64,000 nucleotides of DNA from Octopus vulgaris (taxonomy: Eukaryota): assembly GCA_951406725.2 (NCBI GenBank), contig OX597818.1, positions 66,216,001-66,280,000 of the forward strand, read 5' to 3'. The stretch's first letter is position 1. Each line of letters opens with the position of its first letter. The notes under the pieces were generated by a model. It saw nothing but the letters and a program-made list of their open reading frames with translations, was not told where the DNA came from and made no database searches. Below, one piece after another: positions 12,567 through 64,000 of this stretch. The position numbers were made by a program, and so were the translations under genes.

Positions 12567-13760
12567 TGTTAAATTGTCTCAGAGGAAATGTCGCATTTGA
12601 AAAGGGAAACATTAAAATTGTTTTTTAAGTTTTAGATTATGTATTTATTTAATCAAAGTGTGATCTTTGCTTATTTATGGCCTTCATTGAATGTTCCTCT
12701 ATGGCATATATTCCATCTTCAGAGAATTTGTCATCTTTTACACTGACATGCTTTAATTTCCTCTTCATTATTTAAGAATGCTTTATTGTTTATAGCAACT
12801 CTAAGTGTATAAATATGTGATAATTAGAAGGAGAAATATAGGGAGAATAAGGAGGATGTATCAAAATTTCATAATTCCGGCTTTGCAACATGTGGACCGT
12901 AGCTTAAGTCTGTGAATTATCATGGAGCAAAGTTGGATTATCTCTATTCACTAATCTGCGTTGCTTCTTTTTTTAATTTTTCATGCATACAATCAATTTC
13001 CTGACAAAAGGATATTAATGTTACAGTTTTTCCTTCTTTCAAAACTGAATAATGAATAAGCCCCTTTGTTGACCACCATACGGTGACCATCAACATTTTA
13101 GAGTGCAGCGGCTGTTCTGGGTAGTGCTTTGGTGACTCTCCTGCATCTAACCACTGCCCTGTCCTCCTGCTGTTATCAAAGAGTATCCATTTCTCATCAT
13201 ACATAATGAGTCGATACAAAAATGATTCTCTTTCCAACAGAGAAATCAACATGGAACACACTGTTAGGCGTTTGTTACTTTGAATCTCATTGAGCCGATG
13301 GGGAATAAAGCTATCCATCTTTTTGACTTTTCACATTCTCCTCAAGTGTCCAGAAGAAGTTGCAGGAGATTTCTGGAGCTCTCATCCAATTTTTCGGAAC
13401 GTTCTTCTCGGATTTCGTTTAACCAAAGCATTCAATTCGTCATGCAGAAGAAGCGATTTTGTTCTCCCTTTTGTCATGTCAACAGAATCGTTACCAAAAG
13501 CCCGCTTTATATTTCCTAGAGCTTCGGTTGTAGAGTAACCCAACCTGTAGTCGTACAAGAACACGACTCGCCATTGTTCAGTTGTCAACAATGTAATAGA
13601 AATTGTGGGTAGCAATTCTGAATAATAGTATTTTCCAGAAAGAAAAAAAGAGTTAAGAGTAAACACAAGCATATACATAGAAACTCATTAAAACTCCATT
13701 TATAGATGACTCATAGGAAATCCATTAAAACTACGACATTTCATGTGAGACAACCCCATA
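12567..13760 (-). mobile_element. Mariner (Mos1/SETMAR-like) transposon, degenerate
   Basis: TIRs 'ttgtctcagaggaaatgtcg' / 'cgacatttcatgtgagacaaccccata'; ORF 12944-13318 has MYDEKWILFDN, LHSKMLMVTVWWSTKGLIHYSVL; ORF 13382-13678 has N-terminal HTH-like sequence (FLYDYRLG..ALGNIKRAFG). Confidence 0.9.
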
Positions 13761-45676: not shown

Positions 45677-47726
45677 AAGTCCCGCCTGAAAATAAAACTG
45701 TTGGAAATTGAAAATTGTCTGCAACTCTCCCATGAGAAGGAACGAGCAGACAAAGAAGACTGGGCTATAGACAACATAAAAACTAACCCCAGAGCTTTCT
45801 ACAGGTATGCCAAAAAACAGCTACGGTGCACTGTAGGATAGGGCCACTCCTTGAAAAGGATGGCACACTCACAGGAAAACCAATGAGGGTAAGTGAAATA
45901 CTGAATGAACAATTCAAGAGTGTTTTCACTCCACCCCTTGGGCATTTCCAAATCATCAATCCAACTGACTTCTTTACCACTGCAGATATAGAATCAGAGG
46001 CGGCGACGATAAATTACATCGACATAAAGGAAGACGATGTAATAAAGGCTATAGATGAAATGAAAATAGACTCAGCTATTGGCCCCGATGGATTCCCGGC
46101 AATCCTCCTAAAAGTATGTAAGAGAGTCCTAGCAAGACCACTGCAGTTCCTCTTTCAGAGCTTCCTTGCAGCTGACAAACTTCCAAGAAAACTGAAGGAA
46201 GGTAAAATATGCCCTATTCATAAAGGAGGTAGCAGAGCGGAGGCCAAGAACTACAGATCTATCTCTCTGACCTCACACATCAGCAAGGTCATGGAACGAA
46301 TAGTCAGAAGGAAACTAATCACCTTCCTTGAAGAAAATGACTTGCTGCCTGACACCCAACATGGTTTCCGACCAGGAAGAAGCTGCTTAACTCAGCTCCT
46401 GCAGCACTATGACTGGGTGCTGAAACAACTGCTCAACCACTCAAATGTGGAAGTCATATATCTCGACTTCGCAAAGGCCTTCGATAAAGTCGATCATGGA
46501 ATGATATGTCACAAACTGCGTGATCTTGGCATAGTTGGAAAACTAGGAGAATGGCTTCACGACTTTCTGAAGAATAGAAGTCAGGTGGTAGCAGCCAATG
46601 GGGCCACTTCCATTAGCACGCAAATAGTGAGCGGTGTTCCACAGGGCACTGTTTTGGGACCACTACTGTTCATAATGGCCCTCTCAGACATGCCCTCAGC
46701 CACGCGGAGAGCCACGATCACAAGTTATGCAGATGATACAAAAGTTTCACAGGCAATACAGAACCCTGAAGACACTAAACACCTGCAATATGAGCTGGAC
46801 GAAATATACAAGTGGGCTGAAAAGAATAGCATGCAGTTCAATGCTGAAAAGTTTCAAGCTTTATACTATCAGCATGCAAAACTGAATGCAATACCCAATG
46901 AATACACTGGACCCGGAGGGATTGCAATCCCGGAGGCACAATCAGTGCGTGACCTGGTTATTCACATGAGTGATGACGCGACCTTTCATGTACATGTTGC
47001 TAAACTGACAATGAAATGCAGACGGCTGGCTGGATGGATTCTTAGAACCTTTAGAACAAGAGAACAAGAAACCATGATGGTCCTCTGGAAGACACTTGTC
47101 CTAAGCCACTTTGACTATTGCTCTCAGCTATGGTCACCATCCAGTGTCAAGTTGATCACAGAACTTGTGGAGATCCAACGAAGCTACACGAAGAAGATAG
47201 CCTCTATGCAGAATGTAAGTTACTGGGAAAGACTCAAGAGATTAAAATTATATTCCCTGGAGCGTAGGCGGGAGAGATATGCCATAATATACATCTGGAA
47301 GATCCTGGAGGGAAGTGTCCTGAACTTTGGCATCGAGAGTTACGCAAATGCCAGAACTGGGCGCCACTGCGTGGTGCCTAGGACTCCAAACTTGCCATCA
47401 AGATGTAGGACAAGATTCTGTGATAGCCTGGGCTTCCGAGGCCCACAGCTCTTCAATATCCTCCCGAAGAACCTGAGAGACCTGCATGGGGTGGATACAG
47501 ATGTCTTTAAAAGGAAGCTGGATCTCTTCCTGTCAGGTGTCCCAGATGAACCAACTTCACGGCAGGAGGGGCAGATGAGGGCAGCTGCATCGAACTCTCT
47601 CATGCACCAAATAGCAGTTGCTAGAAAGCCTCCATGAAGTGAAACCAAGTAGCAACACCAAATGGCGGTGCCCCAGCATGGCCACAGCTCATAAGCTGAA
47701 ACTAGAATCAATCAATCAATCAATCA
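45677..47726 (+). mobile_element. 5'-truncated non-LTR retrotransposon (CR1-like LINE) inserted in (TA)n
   Basis: RT ORF, 3' UTR 'ggcggtgccccagcatggccacagctcataagctgaaactag' and (AATC)n tail; no endonuclease domain retained. Confidence 0.93.
45826..47637 (+). CDS. LINE ORF2 reverse transcriptase domain and C-terminus (603 aa, N-truncated; upstream part in another frame, ORF 45632-45841)
   Basis: NYRSISLTS, QHGFRPGRSC, YLDFAKAFDKVDH, GVPQGTVLGPLLF, YADD, CR1-like LERRRERY..IWKIL. Confidence 0.92.
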   Translation: MHCRIGPLLEKDGTLTGKPMRVSEILNEQFKSVFTPPLGHFQIINPTDFFTTADIESEAATINYIDIKEDDVIKAIDEMKIDSAIGPDGFPAILLKVCKRVLARPLQFLFQSFLAADKLPRKLKEGKICPIHKGGSRAEAKNYRSISLTSHISKVMERIVRRKLITFLEENDLLPDTQHGFRPGRSCLTQLLQHYDWVLKQLLNHSNVEVIYLDFAKAFDKVDHGMICHKLRDLGIVGKLGEWLHDFLKNRSQVVAANGATSISTQIVSGVPQGTVLGPLLFIMALSDMPSATRRATITSYADDTKVSQAIQNPEDTKHLQYELDEIYKWAEKNSMQFNAEKFQALYYQHAKLNAIPNEYTGPGGIAIPEAQSVRDLVIHMSDDATFHVHVAKLTMKCRRLAGWILRTFRTREQETMMVLWKTLVLSHFDYCSQLWSPSSVKLITELVEIQRSYTKKIASMQNVSYWERLKRLKLYSLERRRERYAIIYIWKILEGSVLNFGIESYANARTGRHCVVPRTPNLPSRCRTRFCDSLGFRGPQLFNILPKNLRDLHGVDTDVFKRKLDLFLSGVPDEPTSRQEGQMRAAASNSLMHQIAVARKPP

Positions 47727-56776: not shown

Positions 56777-57747
56777 GGTTAATATATTATGAGTTACTTG
56801 CATGGTATAACAAAGATGACATATAATTATGAGGATGTGTATTTATAGTTGTGACCACAGATTAAAATGCAATTTTGGCAAATATTTCAGCATTGGTATA
56901 AATATGGAGTTTGAATAGCCAAGATTCCTTCTCTATATGTAGATTAGGCCACGGTGACATTATAGATTTGATAACATTTACGCAATGATACACATGCTTA
57001 CTTTCTGAATTTAAATGAATCTCTTATTTCCAATGCACGAGCAATAACGTTCCTAGGAAATTCTTAGCTATCATCCAGCTTTTAAGAAATGCTTCAGGAA
57101 AATATAAGAGGAACTTGTTAAAAGGAATAAGTGGTTTGAGTACTGGTTCGTATTTATATGTCTTTTCTACATTATTACAAATATGAAGCATCTGAGAGGC
57201 TCTGTTCTCAACCATTGATATTTTCGGAGTGTTTCCTTGAAAAGTAAACAATATACGTTGTGCAGACAATTACTCGCAATTAACATTATACGACTGATAA
57301 ATTACACAAACTGTATTGATTTAATTAATACATTGTATTTTATCTAAATATATCCCTTTGCATAATATATAAAAACTTCATTGTAAACCACAGTATGAGG
57401 AAAATATACTTTGACCATCAAAAGTAAATAACCTTTGTGTGTATGTGTGTATGGATGCGTGTGTCATGTCATGATCAGACGTTTGCGACAAGGTGAGAGT
57501 GCGTTGTAAGCTTGTGTCATGTAATTAGCAGGTATCAACTGTGGAGCACTTATCATCTTTACCTTCCCCCTACCACTACTTGTCAATTTCGGTGTTGTTC
57601 TATTGAATTTTACACTCAACTTAACTCTTCGAGGTTCTCTTTAAAAACTCTCTTCTCTTCCTGCACAGCAAAGGGTACCTGGTGAAATGAACCGGCCAAA
57701 TTTTTTATCGACTAATATTATATGCAGCTATATGTAAGGGGTACAAA

Positions 57748-58160
57748 GGCGACGAGCTGGCAGAAACGTCAGCACGCCGGGCGAAATGCGTAGCCGTATT
57801 TCGGCTGCGTTACGTTGTGAGTTCAAATTCTGCCGAAGTTGACTTTACCTTTCATCCTTTCGGGAAAGATAAATAAAGTACCAGGTACGCACTGGGTTCG
57901 ATATAATGGATTTAATCCCTTTGTCTGTCTTTTTGTTGCCTCACTGTGTTTAGCCCCTTGTGGGTAGTAAAGAAATAGGTATTTCGTCTGCCGTTACATA
58001 CTGAATTCAAATTTCGCCGAGGTCGACTTTTTTTTTCATCCTTTCAGGGTCAATAAATTAAGTACCAGTAACGCACTGGGGTCCATGTAATCGACTTAAT
58101 CCCTTTGTCTGTTTTGTTTGTCCCCTCTATGTTTAGCCCATTGTGGGCAAAAAAGAAATA
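57748..58160 (+). mobile_element. SINE family C dimer
   Basis: Head 'ggcgacgagctggcagaaacgtcagcacgccgggcgaaatgcg' plus two units. Confidence 0.88.
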
Positions 58161-59774
58161 ATATGTAAGTTGTATTGTCTTTATCAGTTGATAACGTTGA
58201 AATAAAAACGCCTGTAGATAGACGGGGAAGCAAAATATAAAAACATTAAAAAGTAGCAATGTTCAGTGGGTGTTCGTGTGTAAGCTTCATTCGTATTTTA
58301 TTGAGATATATACTCAGCCTAACAGAAATGTATTGCCATTTGAAAATATATAAGCCACAGATATAGAAACGATTCCTACAACCCCAAGATGGCACCCAAA
58401 ATACCATGCTTCAAGATATTCACTTACCCAACATAAAAAAATTTGTGAGGAATAAATTTAGTCAAGATAATAAACTAACTGGAATCTTGTACGAAATCTG
58501 TGGCTGAAGGGAAATTAGTCCCGCTAAAATAGGTTTGCTTTGTTTTAACAAAATATTCTTGTACAGTGAAGTGTATATCAAGTCTCCATATGGGTCAAAC
58601 TAGTTGATTTATACGAGATGAGAATGATGAACATATTCTTGTTGTTGTTGTTTGAAAATTTGTTCGTTCAATAAATTGCTTGTGTTAATTATTCTTATTT
58701 AAAAACGGCAGGAGATACGAGCCTCCACCAGCAAGAAATATAATCAAATATTAAATCCATTTATTGAATTATAGAATTTCAATTCAAACACGATTACATT
58801 AATTAAATTAAATCAATGATTTATCTGATCATTATTAACAGAACAAAAAAATTACAGATAAAATCAACCAAATCAATTTTATTTTGATTTTTATTTGATT
58901 TCACATTTGTGTCATTTGTTATTTCTCTTCGTTTTTATAACTTTTATCAAATTTATATCAGAAGTGATTTTTTTCCATGCAAATTTTTAAACTGAAATAT
59001 TATATTTTGCAAAACATTCTGCAAGAAAAATCGTTATTTTTTCTATGGTGGTCGACAATATTCAAAGCGGAAATACTGTTGCACAGTTCAGAACATTACG
59101 GTCGACATTATTGCAGAACATTACATTCTGAACTCTACTATATGCATGTGTGTGTACGTGTTTGTATATGTGTGTGCCAAAATATGTATATTAAAGAGGC
59201 CAATCATGTAGTATATGTGATTCTGAGTCAATTGCACGAAATATTAGGCAAATTGCCTCACAAAAATAATCAGCTATGATTCAATGTAGTGAAGAGCATG
59301 GTGAGATACATATGAGCTAAAGAAAAGTAATTCTGATCGAGCAAGAACAGGTATTTAAATAATATAGGCAAATGCATGTCTAGCAACTACCATAAAATAT
59401 TAATTTCCCTAGATGATGAATATTAATTAAAGAAATACCAGTTGAAATGGGCTCTACGCGAGAAGAGATAACCTCAAAATTCAAGCGTTATCCTCATTTG
59501 ACATGTTGTCATAGAAAAGAGCAGGTATATCTGAAACTTAGAGAACATTGGTGGATATCTTTTTCAGGTATTATCGCCGTAATCAGGATGACAATTATCT
59601 GAACATATTACCAATAAGCTAAGGGGCTGGCCTTTTAGGAAATAGAGTAGAGTAAGAAATATTTATTTTCTAGCGGGATTTGCATACGTTAGAATGTCAT
59701 CTGAGTGCCAATTAAAAGTATTTGAACAACAAAGAGAAAGATATGTAAATCAAACGCCACATACGTACACACAC

Positions 59775-59839
<65 letters not shown>

Positions 59840-59842
59840 TAC

Positions 59843-59888
<46 letters not shown>

Positions 59889-59892
<4 letters not shown>

Positions 59893-60155
59893 CATAAGGG
59901 ACTAAAGCCATCTGAATATGGCTAGGGACAGGGCAGGGTGGTGGGGTGTTACTGTTGCATTTAGCCCCAGGTGAACATCGACGTCACCAGAAAGGCTCGA
60001 CACCGTCACGGTGCCCTGCAGGTTAAGGGCACCGTGACGGTGTCGAGCCTTTCTGGTGACGTTGATGTTCGCCTGGGGCTAAATGCAACAGTAAAACCCC
60101 CACCACCCTGCCCTGTCCCTAGCCATATTCAGATGGCTTTAGTCCCTTATGTTAT
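59889..60155. repeat. Inverted repeat, ~130-bp arms with 8-bp spacer
   Basis: '...gacaccgtcacggtgccct gcaggtta agggcaccgtgacggtgtc...'; ~3 substitutions and 1 indel between arms; between (TA)n tracts. Confidence 0.95.
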
Positions 60156-60193
60156 CGAGCAGTTACTGTCTATATCCCTTTTAGAGAATTATT

Positions 60194-60247
<54 letters not shown>

Positions 60248-60254
60248 TATATGC

Positions 60255-60296
<42 letters not shown>

Positions 60297-60299
60297 GTA

Positions 60300-60955
60300 T
60301 ATATTATATAGAGGGCATTATTACACATAAATGCCTCACACTAAGAGGGACATAAGTCATTACTACCAAAAATTTCACTAATCATACCCAATGCAGTTTT
60401 TCAAAGAAAGACATTTAAAAAATGAATTTAGTCCTATATCACCTGTGATTTCGCACTCACCGCATAAAAACTGCGTCTATGCTCATCGGTAGAACTGATT
60501 CTGAACACATCATAAATAAACGACCAACAATGTCGAAGCCGAACAGGCAACTGCTCTCTCCAACGAAGCACATGGAGATGTTTATAAATCATATATTCGG
60601 TAAATGGCGGGCTTTTACGAACTGCACTTCGGATAGGAAAAGTTTTTTCGGAATAAATTTAACAATTAAGGATAACTTCTTAATAAGAAATCTTAACAAG
60701 AAATTATCAGGTAGTTAGCGTGAAAAACCTCATAAGAGAAAAAAAATTCGATAATAATTTTTTTCTTTTGAACATATTAATTTATATTATATAGAGGGCA
60801 TTATTACACATAAATGCCTCACACTAAGAGGGTCATAAGTTTCACTAATCATACCCAATGCAGTTTTTCAAAGCAAGACATTTAAAAAATGAATTTAGTC
60901 CCATTTTTTAAATGTCTTGCTTTGAAAAACTGCATTGGGTATGATTAGTGAAATT
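60300..60955 (-). mobile_element. Non-coding hammerhead-containing element with direct repeat and inverted 5' arm (Penelope/retrozyme-like)
   Basis: Direct repeat 60300-60434 / 60783-60901 (483-bp offset, 16-bp deletion in copy 2); hairpin arms 60840-60891 / 60902-60953; hammerhead at 60432-60494. Confidence 0.7.
60432..60494 (-). ncRNA. Type I hammerhead ribozyme motif (U4C core variant)
   Basis: Minus strand: ttcta CCGATGA gcat agacgcagtttttatgcggtga gtgc GAAA tcac ag gtga TA tagga; stems I, II and III can all pair. Confidence 0.6.
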
Positions 60956-62096
60956 CTCGTTTTCTGTGACCTTTTCTGGTGTGTGCCTATACCATCTTTT
61001 TTCTGTTGTTATTCCATAATGTTGGCATAGCTTCCAATGTATGTAGGTTCCAACTCTGTCATGTCTGTGAATATATTCCTTCTTAGCCAGGACTGGGCAG
61101 CTAGAGATAATATGATTTATTGTTTCTTATCCATCTCCACATATTCTGCAGTTACTTGTAATATTTCTTTTCATTACATGTTTTTGGTAATTTCTGGTGG
61201 GGAGGCTTTGGTCTTGTGCTGCAATTAAAAATCCCTCTGTTTCTGCTTTGAGTCCTGAGCTTCTCAACCATTGCTGGGATTTTTCTTTGTCTATTTCTTT
61301 TGCGTTTAGTTTAGTCCAGTATTTACAATGAAGGGGCTTTTCTTGCCATCGTTTTATCATGGTTCGTTGCTGTTCTATTTTAATTTGAATTTCATTTGTT
61401 TTATAGCTTTTGTTGTTTCTTCATCTTCTTCTTCTTCATATTTATTAGGTGGTATGATTTCTTGTTTGTATTTGTCAGCTTCCTTAAATACCGAGAACAG
61501 TTTTTTGTTTTGCTCGTGTTTTGCTGCTATTTGTATCAGTTTTCCTTCCTTCTGAAGTAGATATTTTTGCAGTCCTATGGTGGTTATTTTATAGTAGTTT
61601 TCCAGCTGTATAAGGCCTCTACCACCTTCTATACGTTGTATATATAGTCTTTCTATGTCAGATTTTGGGTGATGCATTCTAGATCCTAACATTATTTTTC
61701 TTGTTTTCCTATCTATTTTGGTCAGTTCATTTCGTGTCCAGTTAAGGATATTGTAGCTGTAACTTATAACTGGGACAGCTAAATTGTTAATACCTATTAT
61801 CTTGTTTTTAGCATTGAGCTCTGTTTTTAGTATTGATCTAACTCGTCTATAATATTGTTTTTAATTTTCTCTTTCATTTGTGTGTGTTGTGTCTTATCTA
61901 GTTCATGGATTCCTAAATATTTGTAAGTTTGGCTTTGGTCTAGTTCTTTTATTTCATTGGTTTTATCTAGTGTGATGTTGCTACTCTTAACTAGTTTTCC
62001 TCTTTTCATGGTTACTTTGGCGCATTTTTCTAATCCAAATTTCATATCTATTTCTTTGGTAAATCCATGAATTGTCTTTAATAGTGTTTCCAGCTG

Positions 62097-62520: not shown

Positions 62521-62666
62521 TATGTTTGACTTTTGCTTTATATTTGTACAAGTTGGCTCCAAGTCTCACCCAGAGACCTCAAGAGACAACAGGGTTGGAA
62601 GTTCATGTTGTTGTTATGCCTAGTGTGCCATATATTTGGGGGGTGGGGATGTTGTACTAATGAATG

Positions 62667-62704
<38 letters not shown>

Positions 62705-64000
62705 TTTTTTTTTTTTTTTTTTTTTAAACCGAAAATTATGTTTGTTTTAAACCTTGAGATTACATAGAGAGTATTTTGCGTAGGATATGAGCAGTTCCCA
62801 TGAGCACTATCTTTTGAACTTCTGCCATTTTTGGGTTTCCTGGTATCTGAGTTAGGTAGCTATCAGCCCCTTTTGCTATCATTCCCAGGGCACCTATGAC
62901 AACAGGTATTGTTTTAGTCTTCAGCTTCCACATTTTGCTGATTTCTATTTCAAGATCTTTATATTTGCTCAGTTTTTGGTAGGTCTTGACAGATACGTTT
63001 ATATCGATTGGGACAGTCATATCAATGAGGAGGCATGTTCTTTGTTTGAAGTTTTTCAATATGATGTCTGGCCTATTTGCATCTATCTTCCTGTCAGTTT
63101 GAATGGTGAAGTTCCAGAGGAGTGAGATGTGGTCATTTTCAAGCACTGGGGGTGGTTTGTGTTCCCACCAGTTTTTTTCATGGGGCAAATCCAGGTTTTT
63201 ACAGATTACCCAGTGAATATATTGTGCAGCTCTATCGTGCCTGTTGAGATACTCTGTAGGCGCTAGAAGACTGCACTTGGAGACCACATGGTCAATGGTT
63301 TCATTTTGTTGCTTGCATACACGACACGTTGGACTGCTTCTGATCTTTAATATGTTGGCCTGGTAGTTTCTTGTTGGTAGGCATTGATCTTGAGCTGCTA
63401 TGATAAACCCCTCTGTTTCAGATTTTAAGCCAGAGGCCATTAGCCATTGATGGGTCAGGGCTTTGTCGATATCTGCATTATTCGCTCTCTTTGGGTATTT
63501 GCCATAGAGAGGTTTTTCTTGCCATTTATTATTCAGAATATCTAAGGCCGCAGTTTTGGCACGGGTTTTCATGCGCCTAGCTTTTTCTGTGCTTGTTTCT
63601 TGTATATCTATCTCCGAAATTGGTTGTATTCGGAATTCACTTAGATATTCCTTTGCCTGTTTTGTGACTGAGTATGATGCTTTCTTGTTTTCATGTTTTG
63701 AGACAAGTTTTAGCATCCAGTCCTCAGAGTTTTTCAGGTAGGTGTCTAGGCCAATTGTAGCAATCTTCATTGTTATTGCCAGTTGCAAAAGACCACGGCC
63801 TCCCTCTTTTCTTGGCAGATAGAGTCGTTCTGTATCTGCCTTAGGGTGGTGCATTCTATGCATTGTCAACAGTTTCCTTATTTTTCTGTCGAGCTGACAT
63901 ATTTCAGTAATTGACCAGTTAACAATATTGAAACTGTAAGTCACGACTGGTATAGCTAATGCATTGATTGCTTCGATCCTGTTTCTTGCATTCAGCTCTG
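62520..64000 (-). mobile_element. Dong/R4-type RLE non-LTR retrotransposon, 3' part (continues beyond the window)
   Basis: Open ORF to the window edge, ~240-bp 3' UTR ending in (TAA)n. Confidence 0.92.
62760..64000 (-). CDS. C-terminal part of RT/zinc-knuckle/restriction-like endonuclease polyprotein
   Basis: ORF 62760-63944: RLYLPRKEGGRGL, CRVC..ETIDHVVSKC (CCHC), RHD, RPDII, LIDMTVP, KLSKYKDL, PVVIGALG. Confidence 0.92.
   Translation of the reverse strand, partial: ELNARNRIEAINALAIPVVTYSFNIVNWSITEICQLDRKIRKLLTMHRMHHPKADTERLYLPRKEGGRGLLQLAITMKIATIGLDTYLKNSEDWMLKLVSKHENKKASYSVTKQAKEYLSEFRIQPISEIDIQETSTEKARRMKTRAKTAALDILNNKWQEKPLYGKYPKRANNADIDKALTHQWLMASGLKSETEGFIIAAQDQCLPTRNYQANILKIRSSPTCRVCKQQNETIDHVVSKCSLLAPTEYLNRHDRAAQYIHWVICKNLDLPHEKNWWEHKPPPVLENDHISLLWNFTIQTDRKIDANRPDIILKNFKQRTCLLIDMTVPIDINVSVKTYQKLSKYKDLEIEISKMWKLKTKTIPVVIGALGMIAKGADSYLTQIPGNPKMAEVQKIVLMGTAHILRKILSM

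What the first reader, a model, noticed from the sequence alone, without database searches (positions are those of the whole stretch)
60300..60955. Candidate cephalopod retrozyme / Penelope-type non-autonomous element whose repeat boundary sits at a hammerhead cleavage site
Seen: a non-coding ~483-bp unit followed by a partial second copy. A type I hammerhead fold lies on the minus strand (60432-60494; stems I-III pair, core CCGAUGA/GAAA/AUA), with predicted cleavage between 60437 and 60436. Homology between the two direct-repeat copies stops at 60434/60901, so the upstream minus-strand copy begins within about 2 nt of the cleavage site. It is then capped by a ~52-bp inverted copy of itself. 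Established: Penelope-like elements carry hammerheads in their repeats and often show tandem plus inverted 5' structures; metazoan non-LTR retrozymes are short type I hammerhead tandem repeats processed into circular RNAs. Inference: this is a reverse-transcribed, ribozyme-processed RNA (more than one unit length, as expected from a circular template) mobilised in trans. It lies where the adjacent Dong element is cut off.
Basis: partly seen in the sequence, partly recalled or inferred. Interest (0 to 1): 0.8.

Follow-up and report, generated by a model that had tools for sequence, protein, structure and literature searches.

The report
Octopod hammerhead retrozyme with Penelope-type ends
A 483-base non-coding repeat, abundant in this animal (likely an octopod) and in other organisms' sequencing runs, carries a conserved hammerhead motif predicted to cut its own RNA and likely spreads by borrowing the enzymes of Penelope-like jumping genes; this kind of element is already known from other animals, but here one copy ends two bases from the predicted cut.

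Summary
The minus strand carries a type I hammerhead (60430-60496, predicted cut 60437|60436) in a 483-bp ORF-free unit. A partial second copy (60783-60901) starts 2 nt from the equivalent cut site and is capped by a perfect 52-bp inverted arm. Public contigs show a high-copy family: 67-2,895 contigs in each of four runs, three organism labels. The canonical CUGA core is the majority (75-100% of depth). The tail-to-head junction recurs without an ORF (11 of 32 listed pieces). The strand folds into a long self-paired RNA (z -3.9 to -4.9), and family variants avoid breaking it (8 seen, 15.8 expected, P=0.005). Best reading: a non-autonomous, retrozyme-like parasite of Penelope-like elements, inserted in (TA)n and likely copied from a longer-than-unit linear RNA cut at its upstream hammerhead. 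A circular template is possible but not needed, and it does not predict the stop at the cut. Not shown: self-cleavage, RNA circles, clustering of 5' ends (one copy only), or the helper element. Animal retrozymes, their Penelope link and an Octopus Penelope-like hammerhead are already published. Verdict: new member of a known kind.

The parts
60198..60299 (.). (TA)n microsatellite at the element's 3' end, the likely insertion target
   Evidence: sequence; (TA)n is the listed target of Hydra- and Naiad-clade Penelope-like elements, including Octopus families
60300..60436 (-). tail: 137 nt downstream of the predicted cut, downstream copy; 3' end of the element
60430..60496 (-). type I hammerhead motif: stem I 60496-60490 with 60436-60430; core 60489-60483; stem II 60482-60479 with 60456-60453; GAAA 60452-60449; palindromic stem III; AUA 60439-60437; predicted cut 60437|60436
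   Evidence: family majority U at position 4 (60488) in 4 of 4 runs
60497..60783 (-). ORF-free body of the unit, pairing long-range with the tail (for example 60723-60715 with 60344-60336, and 60627-60620 with 60398-60391)
60301..60783 (-). one full 483-nt period of the repeat
   Evidence: covered along its whole length by contigs in 4 of 4 runs
60783..60901 (-). partial upstream copy of the tail; starts 2 nt inside the equivalent cut site; 16-nt deletion between 60839 and 60840
60902..60953 (+). 52-bp perfect inverted copy of 60840-60891 (fold-back arm); its outer end coincides with the edge of the 16-nt deletion
60954..62090 (-). neighbouring non-LTR retroelement fragment (R4/Dong-like; label recalled), cut within its ORF at the arm with 2-nt microhomology; likely a bystander
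   Evidence: contigs continue past 60954 with the element's normal sequence in 4 of 4 runs (loose ends)

Best explanation
This is one copy of an abundant, protein-free 483-nt repeat family with a conserved hammerhead motif and a self-paired predicted RNA fold, likely copied into (TA)n tracts by the reverse transcriptase and endonuclease of a Penelope-like element, and likely from a longer-than-unit linear RNA whose 5' end was made by hammerhead self-cleavage. Steps: (1) a tandem or partial-tandem locus is transcribed on the minus strand (inferred). (2) An upstream hammerhead cuts after AUA, probably as a dimer through the palindromic stem III (motif and conservation shown; cleavage untested). 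(3) A Penelope-like protein acting in trans nicks (TA)n and starts copying about 136 nt downstream of an uncut hammerhead (target and end position shown; helper inferred). (4) Copying runs through one whole unit and the preceding tail and stops at the RNA's cut 5' end (edge 2 nt from the cut shown in one copy; cause inferred). (5) The cDNA end folds back and copies itself, giving the inverted arm (arm shown; mechanism inferred). (6) A rearrangement at the base of the palindrome likely removed 16 nt on one side, and the rest of the arm plus the neighbour's 3' end on the other (coinciding edges shown; event inferred). The family may also make RNA circles as known retrozymes do (untested). I put the element's identity at about 0.9 and the full linear, cut-defined route at 0.6.
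For: High copy: 2,895, 2,615, 811 and 67 contigs laid in runs X2, X3, X8 and X9 (three organism labels), with every bin of the unit covered. Core position 4 reads U in 75%, 88%, 100% and 92% of depth. None of the 40 rows shown (of 132) falls in GAAA, stem III or AUA, while loop 2 and N7 vary. Two loose ends (X3, X9) keep GAAA, the stem III palindrome and AUA with a different loop. U1.1 to C is common (30-94% of depth) and one X8 loose end has G at 2.1, an unphased compensatory pair. The tail-to-head junction is bridged by 31 or more letters each side in 11 of 32 listed pieces (X2 3, X3 6, X8 2, X9 0), with no ORF between. Fold z: -4.27 and -3.89 as a circle, -3.86 linear, -4.91 for 60437-60901; opposite strand -2.15; 16 control windows -2.23 to +1.12. 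Of 40 shown variants 8 break helices against 15.75 expected (P=0.005); pair 60396/60622 runs C-G, U-G, U-A across runs. Partial tandem, inverted 5' copy, (TA)n target and a hammerhead near the 3' end are described Penelope-like signatures (PMC8557442 passages and supplement). CCGA is a tolerated natural core variant (PMC9608096 passage).
Against: No Rfam hammerhead hit. G10.1 reads U in 59-78% of depth, which breaks the first pair of stem II unless 11.1 also changes; one X9 loose end has U there, as in many Hydra-clade hammerheads, but it is unphased. The 5' edge at the cut rests on one copy; table 6 lists no clustered ends and no listed joint reproduces this inversion. In the one Penelope-like element tested in vitro, hammerhead mutants still inserted, uncut RNA was the main substrate, and no RNA reads began or ended at the cut (PMC11167929). 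Only 1 of 9 Xenopus retrozyme dimers cleaved in vitro. No helper element sharing the tail was found (short exact strings against one paper's supplement only). The variant test used 40 of 132 rows, unphased, on a structure predicted from one copy.
Confidence: 0.6

Rival explanations
1. Same element, but copied by rolling reverse transcription around a covalently closed 483-nt RNA circle.
For: More than one unit was inserted. The predicted fold holds the two sides of the cut together at the end of a long rod. Mussel, coral and axolotl retrozymes are circular RNAs (PMC7229834). The 16-nt difference between the copies coincides with the palindrome base and may be post-insertion, so the copies may have been nearly identical at birth.
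Against: The two copies differ at 60407/60874, a family polymorphism with both alleles seen, and the arm shares the upstream allele, a weak hint of two non-identical units. The circular fold is not more stable than the linear one (-114.1 against -119.1 kcal/mol).
Confidence: 0.2
2. Same non-autonomous element, but the 5' edge is a random truncation or a polymerase stall in stem I of an uncut RNA; the hammerhead is conserved for another step or is slow.
For: The edge lies 5 nt inside the 3' strand of stem I, where a structural stall is also plausible. Uncut RNA is the main substrate of a Penelope-like protein in vitro. The neighbouring fold-back element at 59889-60197 has the same inverted 5' end with no hammerhead hit.
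Against: A uniform stop would fall within 2 nt of the cut about 1% of the time (5 of 483).
Confidence: 0.12
3. The sequence is only the terminal repeat of an autonomous Penelope-like element, left as two 5'-truncated copies; there is no separate non-autonomous family.
For: Hammerhead position near the 3' end and the palindromic stem III with a 1-2 nt loop match Hydra-clade terminal repeats; 431 loose ends were not shown and might include ORF joins.
Against: The same tail-to-head junction recurs in 11 of 32 pieces from 3 of 4 runs; no ORF remnant in six frames; helices join body and tail across the whole unit and variants respect them.
Confidence: 0.05
4. A local duplication, plain satellite DNA or assembly artefact with a chance hammerhead-like string.
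For: No Rfam hit; palindromes and (TA)n tracts are hard to assemble; no listed piece spans the whole stretch.
Against: Thousands of contigs in several organism labels, canonical core in the majority, conserved junction and structure-preserving variation.
Confidence: 0.03

Closest known systems
Metazoan non-LTR retrozymes (Cervera and de la Pena 2020, PMC7229834; Li, Clavereau and Pollet 2026, bioRxiv 10.64898/2026.07.22.740005)
   Same: Short ORF-free unit, low GC (33%), type I hammerhead, head-to-tail junction, highly self-paired predicted RNA, many copies; proposed to be non-autonomous derivatives of Penelope-like elements. Length 483 lies within the 51-972 bp range of Li et al.
   Different: This locus has 1.28 units and only one hammerhead, so it fails Li et al.'s two-motif rule for an active retrozyme. 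The motif is of the Penelope type (longer palindromic stem III, long stem II) rather than the canonical short-stem-III type. The unit is slightly longer than the 150-450 bp of Cervera and de la Pena. Circles and cleavage are untested. No cephalopod retrozyme turned up in my searches.
Terminal repeats (pLTRs) of endonuclease-bearing Penelope-like elements, for example the Hydra clade including Hydra-1_Obim of Octopus bimaculoides (Craig et al. 2021, PMC8557442; Cervera and de la Pena 2014, PMC4209133)
   Same: Hammerhead near the 3' end, palindromic stem III with a 1-2 nt loop, (TA)n target, partial tandem plus inverted 5' copy.
   Different: No reverse transcriptase or GIY-YIG ORF. The hammerhead sequence differs from the published Hydra-1_Obim motif, and short exact strings of this element were not found in that paper's consensus files apart from one unrelated 10-nt match.
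Poseidon_Ac of Anolis carolinensis (Frangieh et al. 2024, PMC11167929)
   Same: Reverse transcription starts internally some distance downstream of the hammerhead and targets AT-rich DNA, as inferred here.
   Different: There the hammerhead overlaps the ORF start, cleavage was not needed in vitro and no RNA ends mapped to the cut; here there is no ORF and one genomic copy ends 2 nt from the cut.

Membership tests
Type I hammerhead ribozyme | Core CUGANGA / GAAA / NUH with three stems, stem I open | tested here: met
   the window has C at position 4, the family majority has U
Type I hammerhead ribozyme | Match to an Rfam hammerhead model such as RF00163 | tested here: not met
   no hammerhead family listed
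Type I hammerhead ribozyme | Covariation of the stems across copies | tested here: inconclusive
   unphased hints only (1.1/2.1 pair; wobble-keeping changes at 60462 and 60473; G10.1 often U)
Type I hammerhead ribozyme | Self-cleavage after the NUH triplet | not testable with these tools
   needs in vitro transcription
Metazoan non-LTR retrozyme | Short non-coding unit without LTR or ORF | tested here: met
Metazoan non-LTR retrozyme | At least two consecutive units each with a complete hammerhead | tested here: inconclusive
   not met at this locus (1.28 units, one motif); the tail-to-head junction recurs in 11 of 32 pieces, but no piece is long enough to span two motifs
Metazoan non-LTR retrozyme | Multi-copy family with a highly self-paired predicted RNA | tested here: met
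Metazoan non-LTR retrozyme | Expressed as monomeric linear and circular RNA | not testable with these tools
   only contigs were available; they cannot show strand, ends or circles
Penelope-like element (autonomous) | ORF with telomerase-like reverse transcriptase and GIY-YIG endonuclease | tested here: not met
   no ORF in the unit
Penelope-like element (autonomous) | Partial tandem, inverted 5' copy, microsatellite target, hammerhead near the 3' end | tested here: met
   against the descriptions
Non-autonomous derivative of a named Penelope-like family | Shared terminal sequence with an autonomous helper | tested here: inconclusive
   only short exact strings against the Naiad, Chlamys and Hydra consensus files, no relevant match; no genome, Repbase or Dfam available

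The most novel reading that the evidence does not exclude
Across this family the 5' edges of inserted copies pile up at the hammerhead cut, so the genome holds a fossil record that ribozyme cleavage defines the template of Penelope-type retrotransposition in vivo, in an abundant, structured and possibly circular cephalopod RNA that bridges Penelope terminal repeats and retrozymes.
Probability: 0.3. Interest if true: 0.65.

Novelty: new member of a known kind. Interest (0 to 1): 0.38.

Why it matters
Why Penelope-like elements keep hammerheads is an open question: Craig et al. call the function unclear, and the one in vitro system did not need cleavage. A family with very many short copies, each recording where reverse transcription stopped, makes the question testable with an assembled genome alone. 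It would also extend retrozyme-like elements to cephalopods, where my searches found no report. Without that edge clustering it is one more animal retrozyme-like family.

Tried and rejected
No whole genome is held for this window, so copy edges could not be counted. Rfam: no hammerhead hit; the miRNA hits are the palindrome and the (TA)n tracts, all below gathering score. JGI metagenome scans: 0 matches to the hammerhead pattern; 3 matches to a tail 20-mer, none extending beyond 20-23 nt, rejected as chance. No other copy of the unit in the window. No tRNA in 59700-61100, so no evidence for a tRNA-headed SINE. Expression: no RNA holder listed; run X9 is only guessed to be RNA, so it is not used as evidence of transcription. 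The idea that C at core position 4 inactivated the downstream motif was dropped: CCGA is a tolerated natural variant. The 16-nt difference as proof of two different template units was dropped because its edge coincides with the palindrome base. The neighbouring non-LTR element as helper: by eye, the 3' end of the second, end-intact copy (62640-62760) does not resemble the tail; the broken copy's missing 3' part is not elsewhere in the window. Twin priming was rejected by reasoning, because the arm duplicates sequence already copied. Lunse et al. (PMC5785218) is not held; I saw only its title in a reference list. Earlier scan findings by sequence and by place were empty.

Full report
Observation. 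Positions 60300-60434 are repeated at 60783-60901 with two substitutions and a 16-nt deletion in the upstream copy. Homology ends at 60434/60901. A perfect 52-bp inverted arm (60902-60953 against 60840-60891, 10-nt loop) follows. On the minus strand 60430-60496 forms a type I hammerhead: 7-bp stem I, core CCGAUGA, 4-bp stem II with a distal hairpin, GAAA, a palindromic stem III and AUA, with the cut at 60437|60436. It is the only descriptor hit in the 64-kb window on either strand. Shuffled windows gave 0.05 hits each at a looser threshold and none in 100 at this motif's 16 stem pairs; 3 of 5,000 shuffles of the element gave a hit. The descriptor was written after seeing the motif. Rfam finds no hammerhead, the isolated motif is not more stable than shuffles (z -1.44), and the catalytic fold lies 3.3 kcal/mol above the minimum. 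The stem III palindrome pairs with a second copy at -13.2 kcal/mol, which fits the dimer mode described for Penelope-type motifs (PMC4209133, parts 1-2 of 4 read; PMC6765202 passages).

A family, not a local accident. No genome is held, so I used public runs. Twenty of 24 listed rows hold part of the unit, under four organism labels. I laid 4 of them (X2, X3, X8, X9; three labels) at 80% likeness: 2,895, 2,615, 811 and 67 contigs, covering every bin of the unit. Depth sums are not copy numbers. Core position 4 (60488) reads U in 75%, 88%, 100% and 92% of depth, so the family core is the canonical CUGA. Among the 40 substitution rows shown (92 more were hidden) none falls in GAAA, stem III or AUA, while loop 2 and N7 vary. 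Two loose ends (X3, X9) keep GAAA, the stem III palindrome and AUA with a 1-nt loop. U1.1 is often C (30-94%) and one X8 loose end has G at 2.1, which would restore the pair; this is unphased. Against a simple picture, G10.1 is U in 59-78% of depth; one X9 loose end has U at 11.1, which would give the U-U arrangement seen in many Hydra-clade motifs, again unphased. The tail-to-head junction at 60783 is bridged by 31 or more letters on each side in 11 of the 32 pieces listed (6,386 more were not shown): 3 in X2, 6 in X3, 2 in X8, 0 in X9. No ORF lies in the unit and no tRNA. The family is therefore a fixed non-coding unit, not just a terminal repeat cut from a longer coding element.

A structured RNA. 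The hammerhead strand folds much better than dinucleotide shuffles: z -4.27 (0 of 100) and -3.89 (0 of 60) as a circle, -3.86 linear, -4.91 for 60437-60901; the other strand gives -2.15 (1 of 60), and 16 control windows -2.23 to +1.12 with 15 shuffles each. The fold is a long rod in which the tail pairs with the body and the hammerhead sits at one end. Of the 40 shown variants, 8 break a helix of 4 or more pairs against 15.75 expected when the same changes are placed at random (P=0.005). Four turn a wobble pair into a Watson-Crick pair (1.8 expected, P=0.095, not significant alone). Pair 60396/60622 is C-G in the window, mostly U-G in X2 and X3, and mostly U-A in X8. Limits: best-supported rows only, unphased, structure from one copy, and tail contigs can fit two places. 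The circular fold is not more stable than the linear one (-114.1 against -119.1 kcal/mol).

Surroundings. The 3' end abuts (TA)n. The arm joins, with 2 shared bases, an RT-bearing non-LTR element cut inside its ORF; contigs in all four runs continue that element normally past 60954, and the missing part is not in the window. The outer end of the arm coincides exactly with the edge of the 16-nt deletion, which suggests one rearrangement at the base of the palindrome; the neighbour is likely a bystander. The host is likely an octopod: the best named relatives of the window's intact LINE protein are from Argonauta at 58-63% identity; three closer and one comparable hit (87, 65, 65, 75%) are unnamed and the other listed hits are at 43-47%.

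Mechanism. Shown: unit, motif, family conservation, junction, (TA)n flank, edge 2 nt from the cut, arm. Inferred: a tandem locus gives a longer-than-unit RNA; an upstream hammerhead cuts; a Penelope-like protein in trans primes at (TA)n and starts about 136 nt downstream of the next, uncut hammerhead, in line with the internal start shown for Poseidon_Ac (PMC11167929, parts 1-2 of 4 read); copying ends at the cut 5' end and the cDNA folds back. I prefer this to a closed circle because a circle has no end at the cut, and because the two copies differ at a family polymorphism (60407/60874) with the arm sharing the upstream allele; that is one site and weak. A uniform truncation would land within 2 nt of the cut about 1% of the time, but this is one copy, and a stall in stem I is possible. 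One search lists no clustered ends, and contigs cannot show them. The Poseidon_Ac study found cleavage unnecessary in vitro and no RNA ends at the cut, and only 1 of 9 frog retrozyme dimers cleaved. The window's CCGA core need not be dead (PMC9608096 passage; bioRxiv 10.64898/2026.09.16.752053 passages).

Known and new. Non-LTR retrozymes are described from coral, mussel and axolotl (PMC7229834: passages, part 2, sections 14 and 17) and argued to be non-autonomous Penelope derivatives (bioRxiv 10.64898/2026.07.22.740005, parts 1-3 of 5; its supplements are closed and might list related families, though it sampled 31 vertebrates, three insects and one coral). Partial tandems, inverted 5' copies and (TA)n bias are described for Penelope-like elements, and a hammerhead is listed for Octopus Hydra-1_Obim, with a different sequence (PMC8557442 passages and supplement parts 2 and 52). 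My searches for hammerhead with octopus, Penelope with octopus and non-autonomous, cephalopod with ribozyme and retrotransposon, and retrozyme with cephalopod found no description of this family; Repbase and Dfam could not be searched, so it may already be catalogued. It works like a retrozyme or non-autonomous Penelope derivative; strict membership (two intact motifs in tandem, circular RNA) is not established. Verdict: real, well supported as a family, a new member of a known kind; interest 0.38, rising to about 0.65 if 5' edges cluster at the cut.

Noticed in passing
window 59889-60197: A second fold-back insertion in the same (TA)n tract, in the opposite orientation: arms of about 129 bp at 97% identity around an 8-nt loop (60018-60025), with a 44-nt extension on one side only and (TA)n on both sides, the layout described for Penelope-like insertions. 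No hammerhead hit, no other copy in the window, no notable fold.
   Followed up: partly
run X8, joint 60744 to 60437: One contig (depth 4) joins the sequence just after the cut site almost directly to the head of the unit, skipping the tail: a possible shorter variant of about 340-350 nt.
   Followed up: no
window 60839/60840 and 60953/60954: The 16-nt deletion and the outer end of the inverted arm meet exactly at the base of the palindrome, suggesting one cruciform-base rearrangement that also removed the neighbour's 3' end.
   Followed up: partly
window 62760-64000 (minus): A second R4/Dong-like non-LTR copy (label recalled) with an open 412-aa C-terminal frame, about 50% identical in protein to the broken copy, ending near a poly(A)/poly(T) inverted tract at 62670-62725.
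   Followed up: partly
window 45787-47637 (plus): Open 616-aa frame of a LINE-type reverse transcriptase; best named relatives are from Argonauta.
   Followed up: partly
window 12944-13330 (minus): Mariner-type transposase fragment (Transposase_1).
   Followed up: no
window 57745-58160: Tandem SINE-like repeat with a period of about 184 bp and 77-80% identity between copies.
   Followed up: no
window 60540-60580 (minus): Variable hairpin region whose family variants loosely resemble polymerase III promoter boxes (by eye, from recall); no tRNA was called. A possible internal promoter, untested.
   Followed up: no
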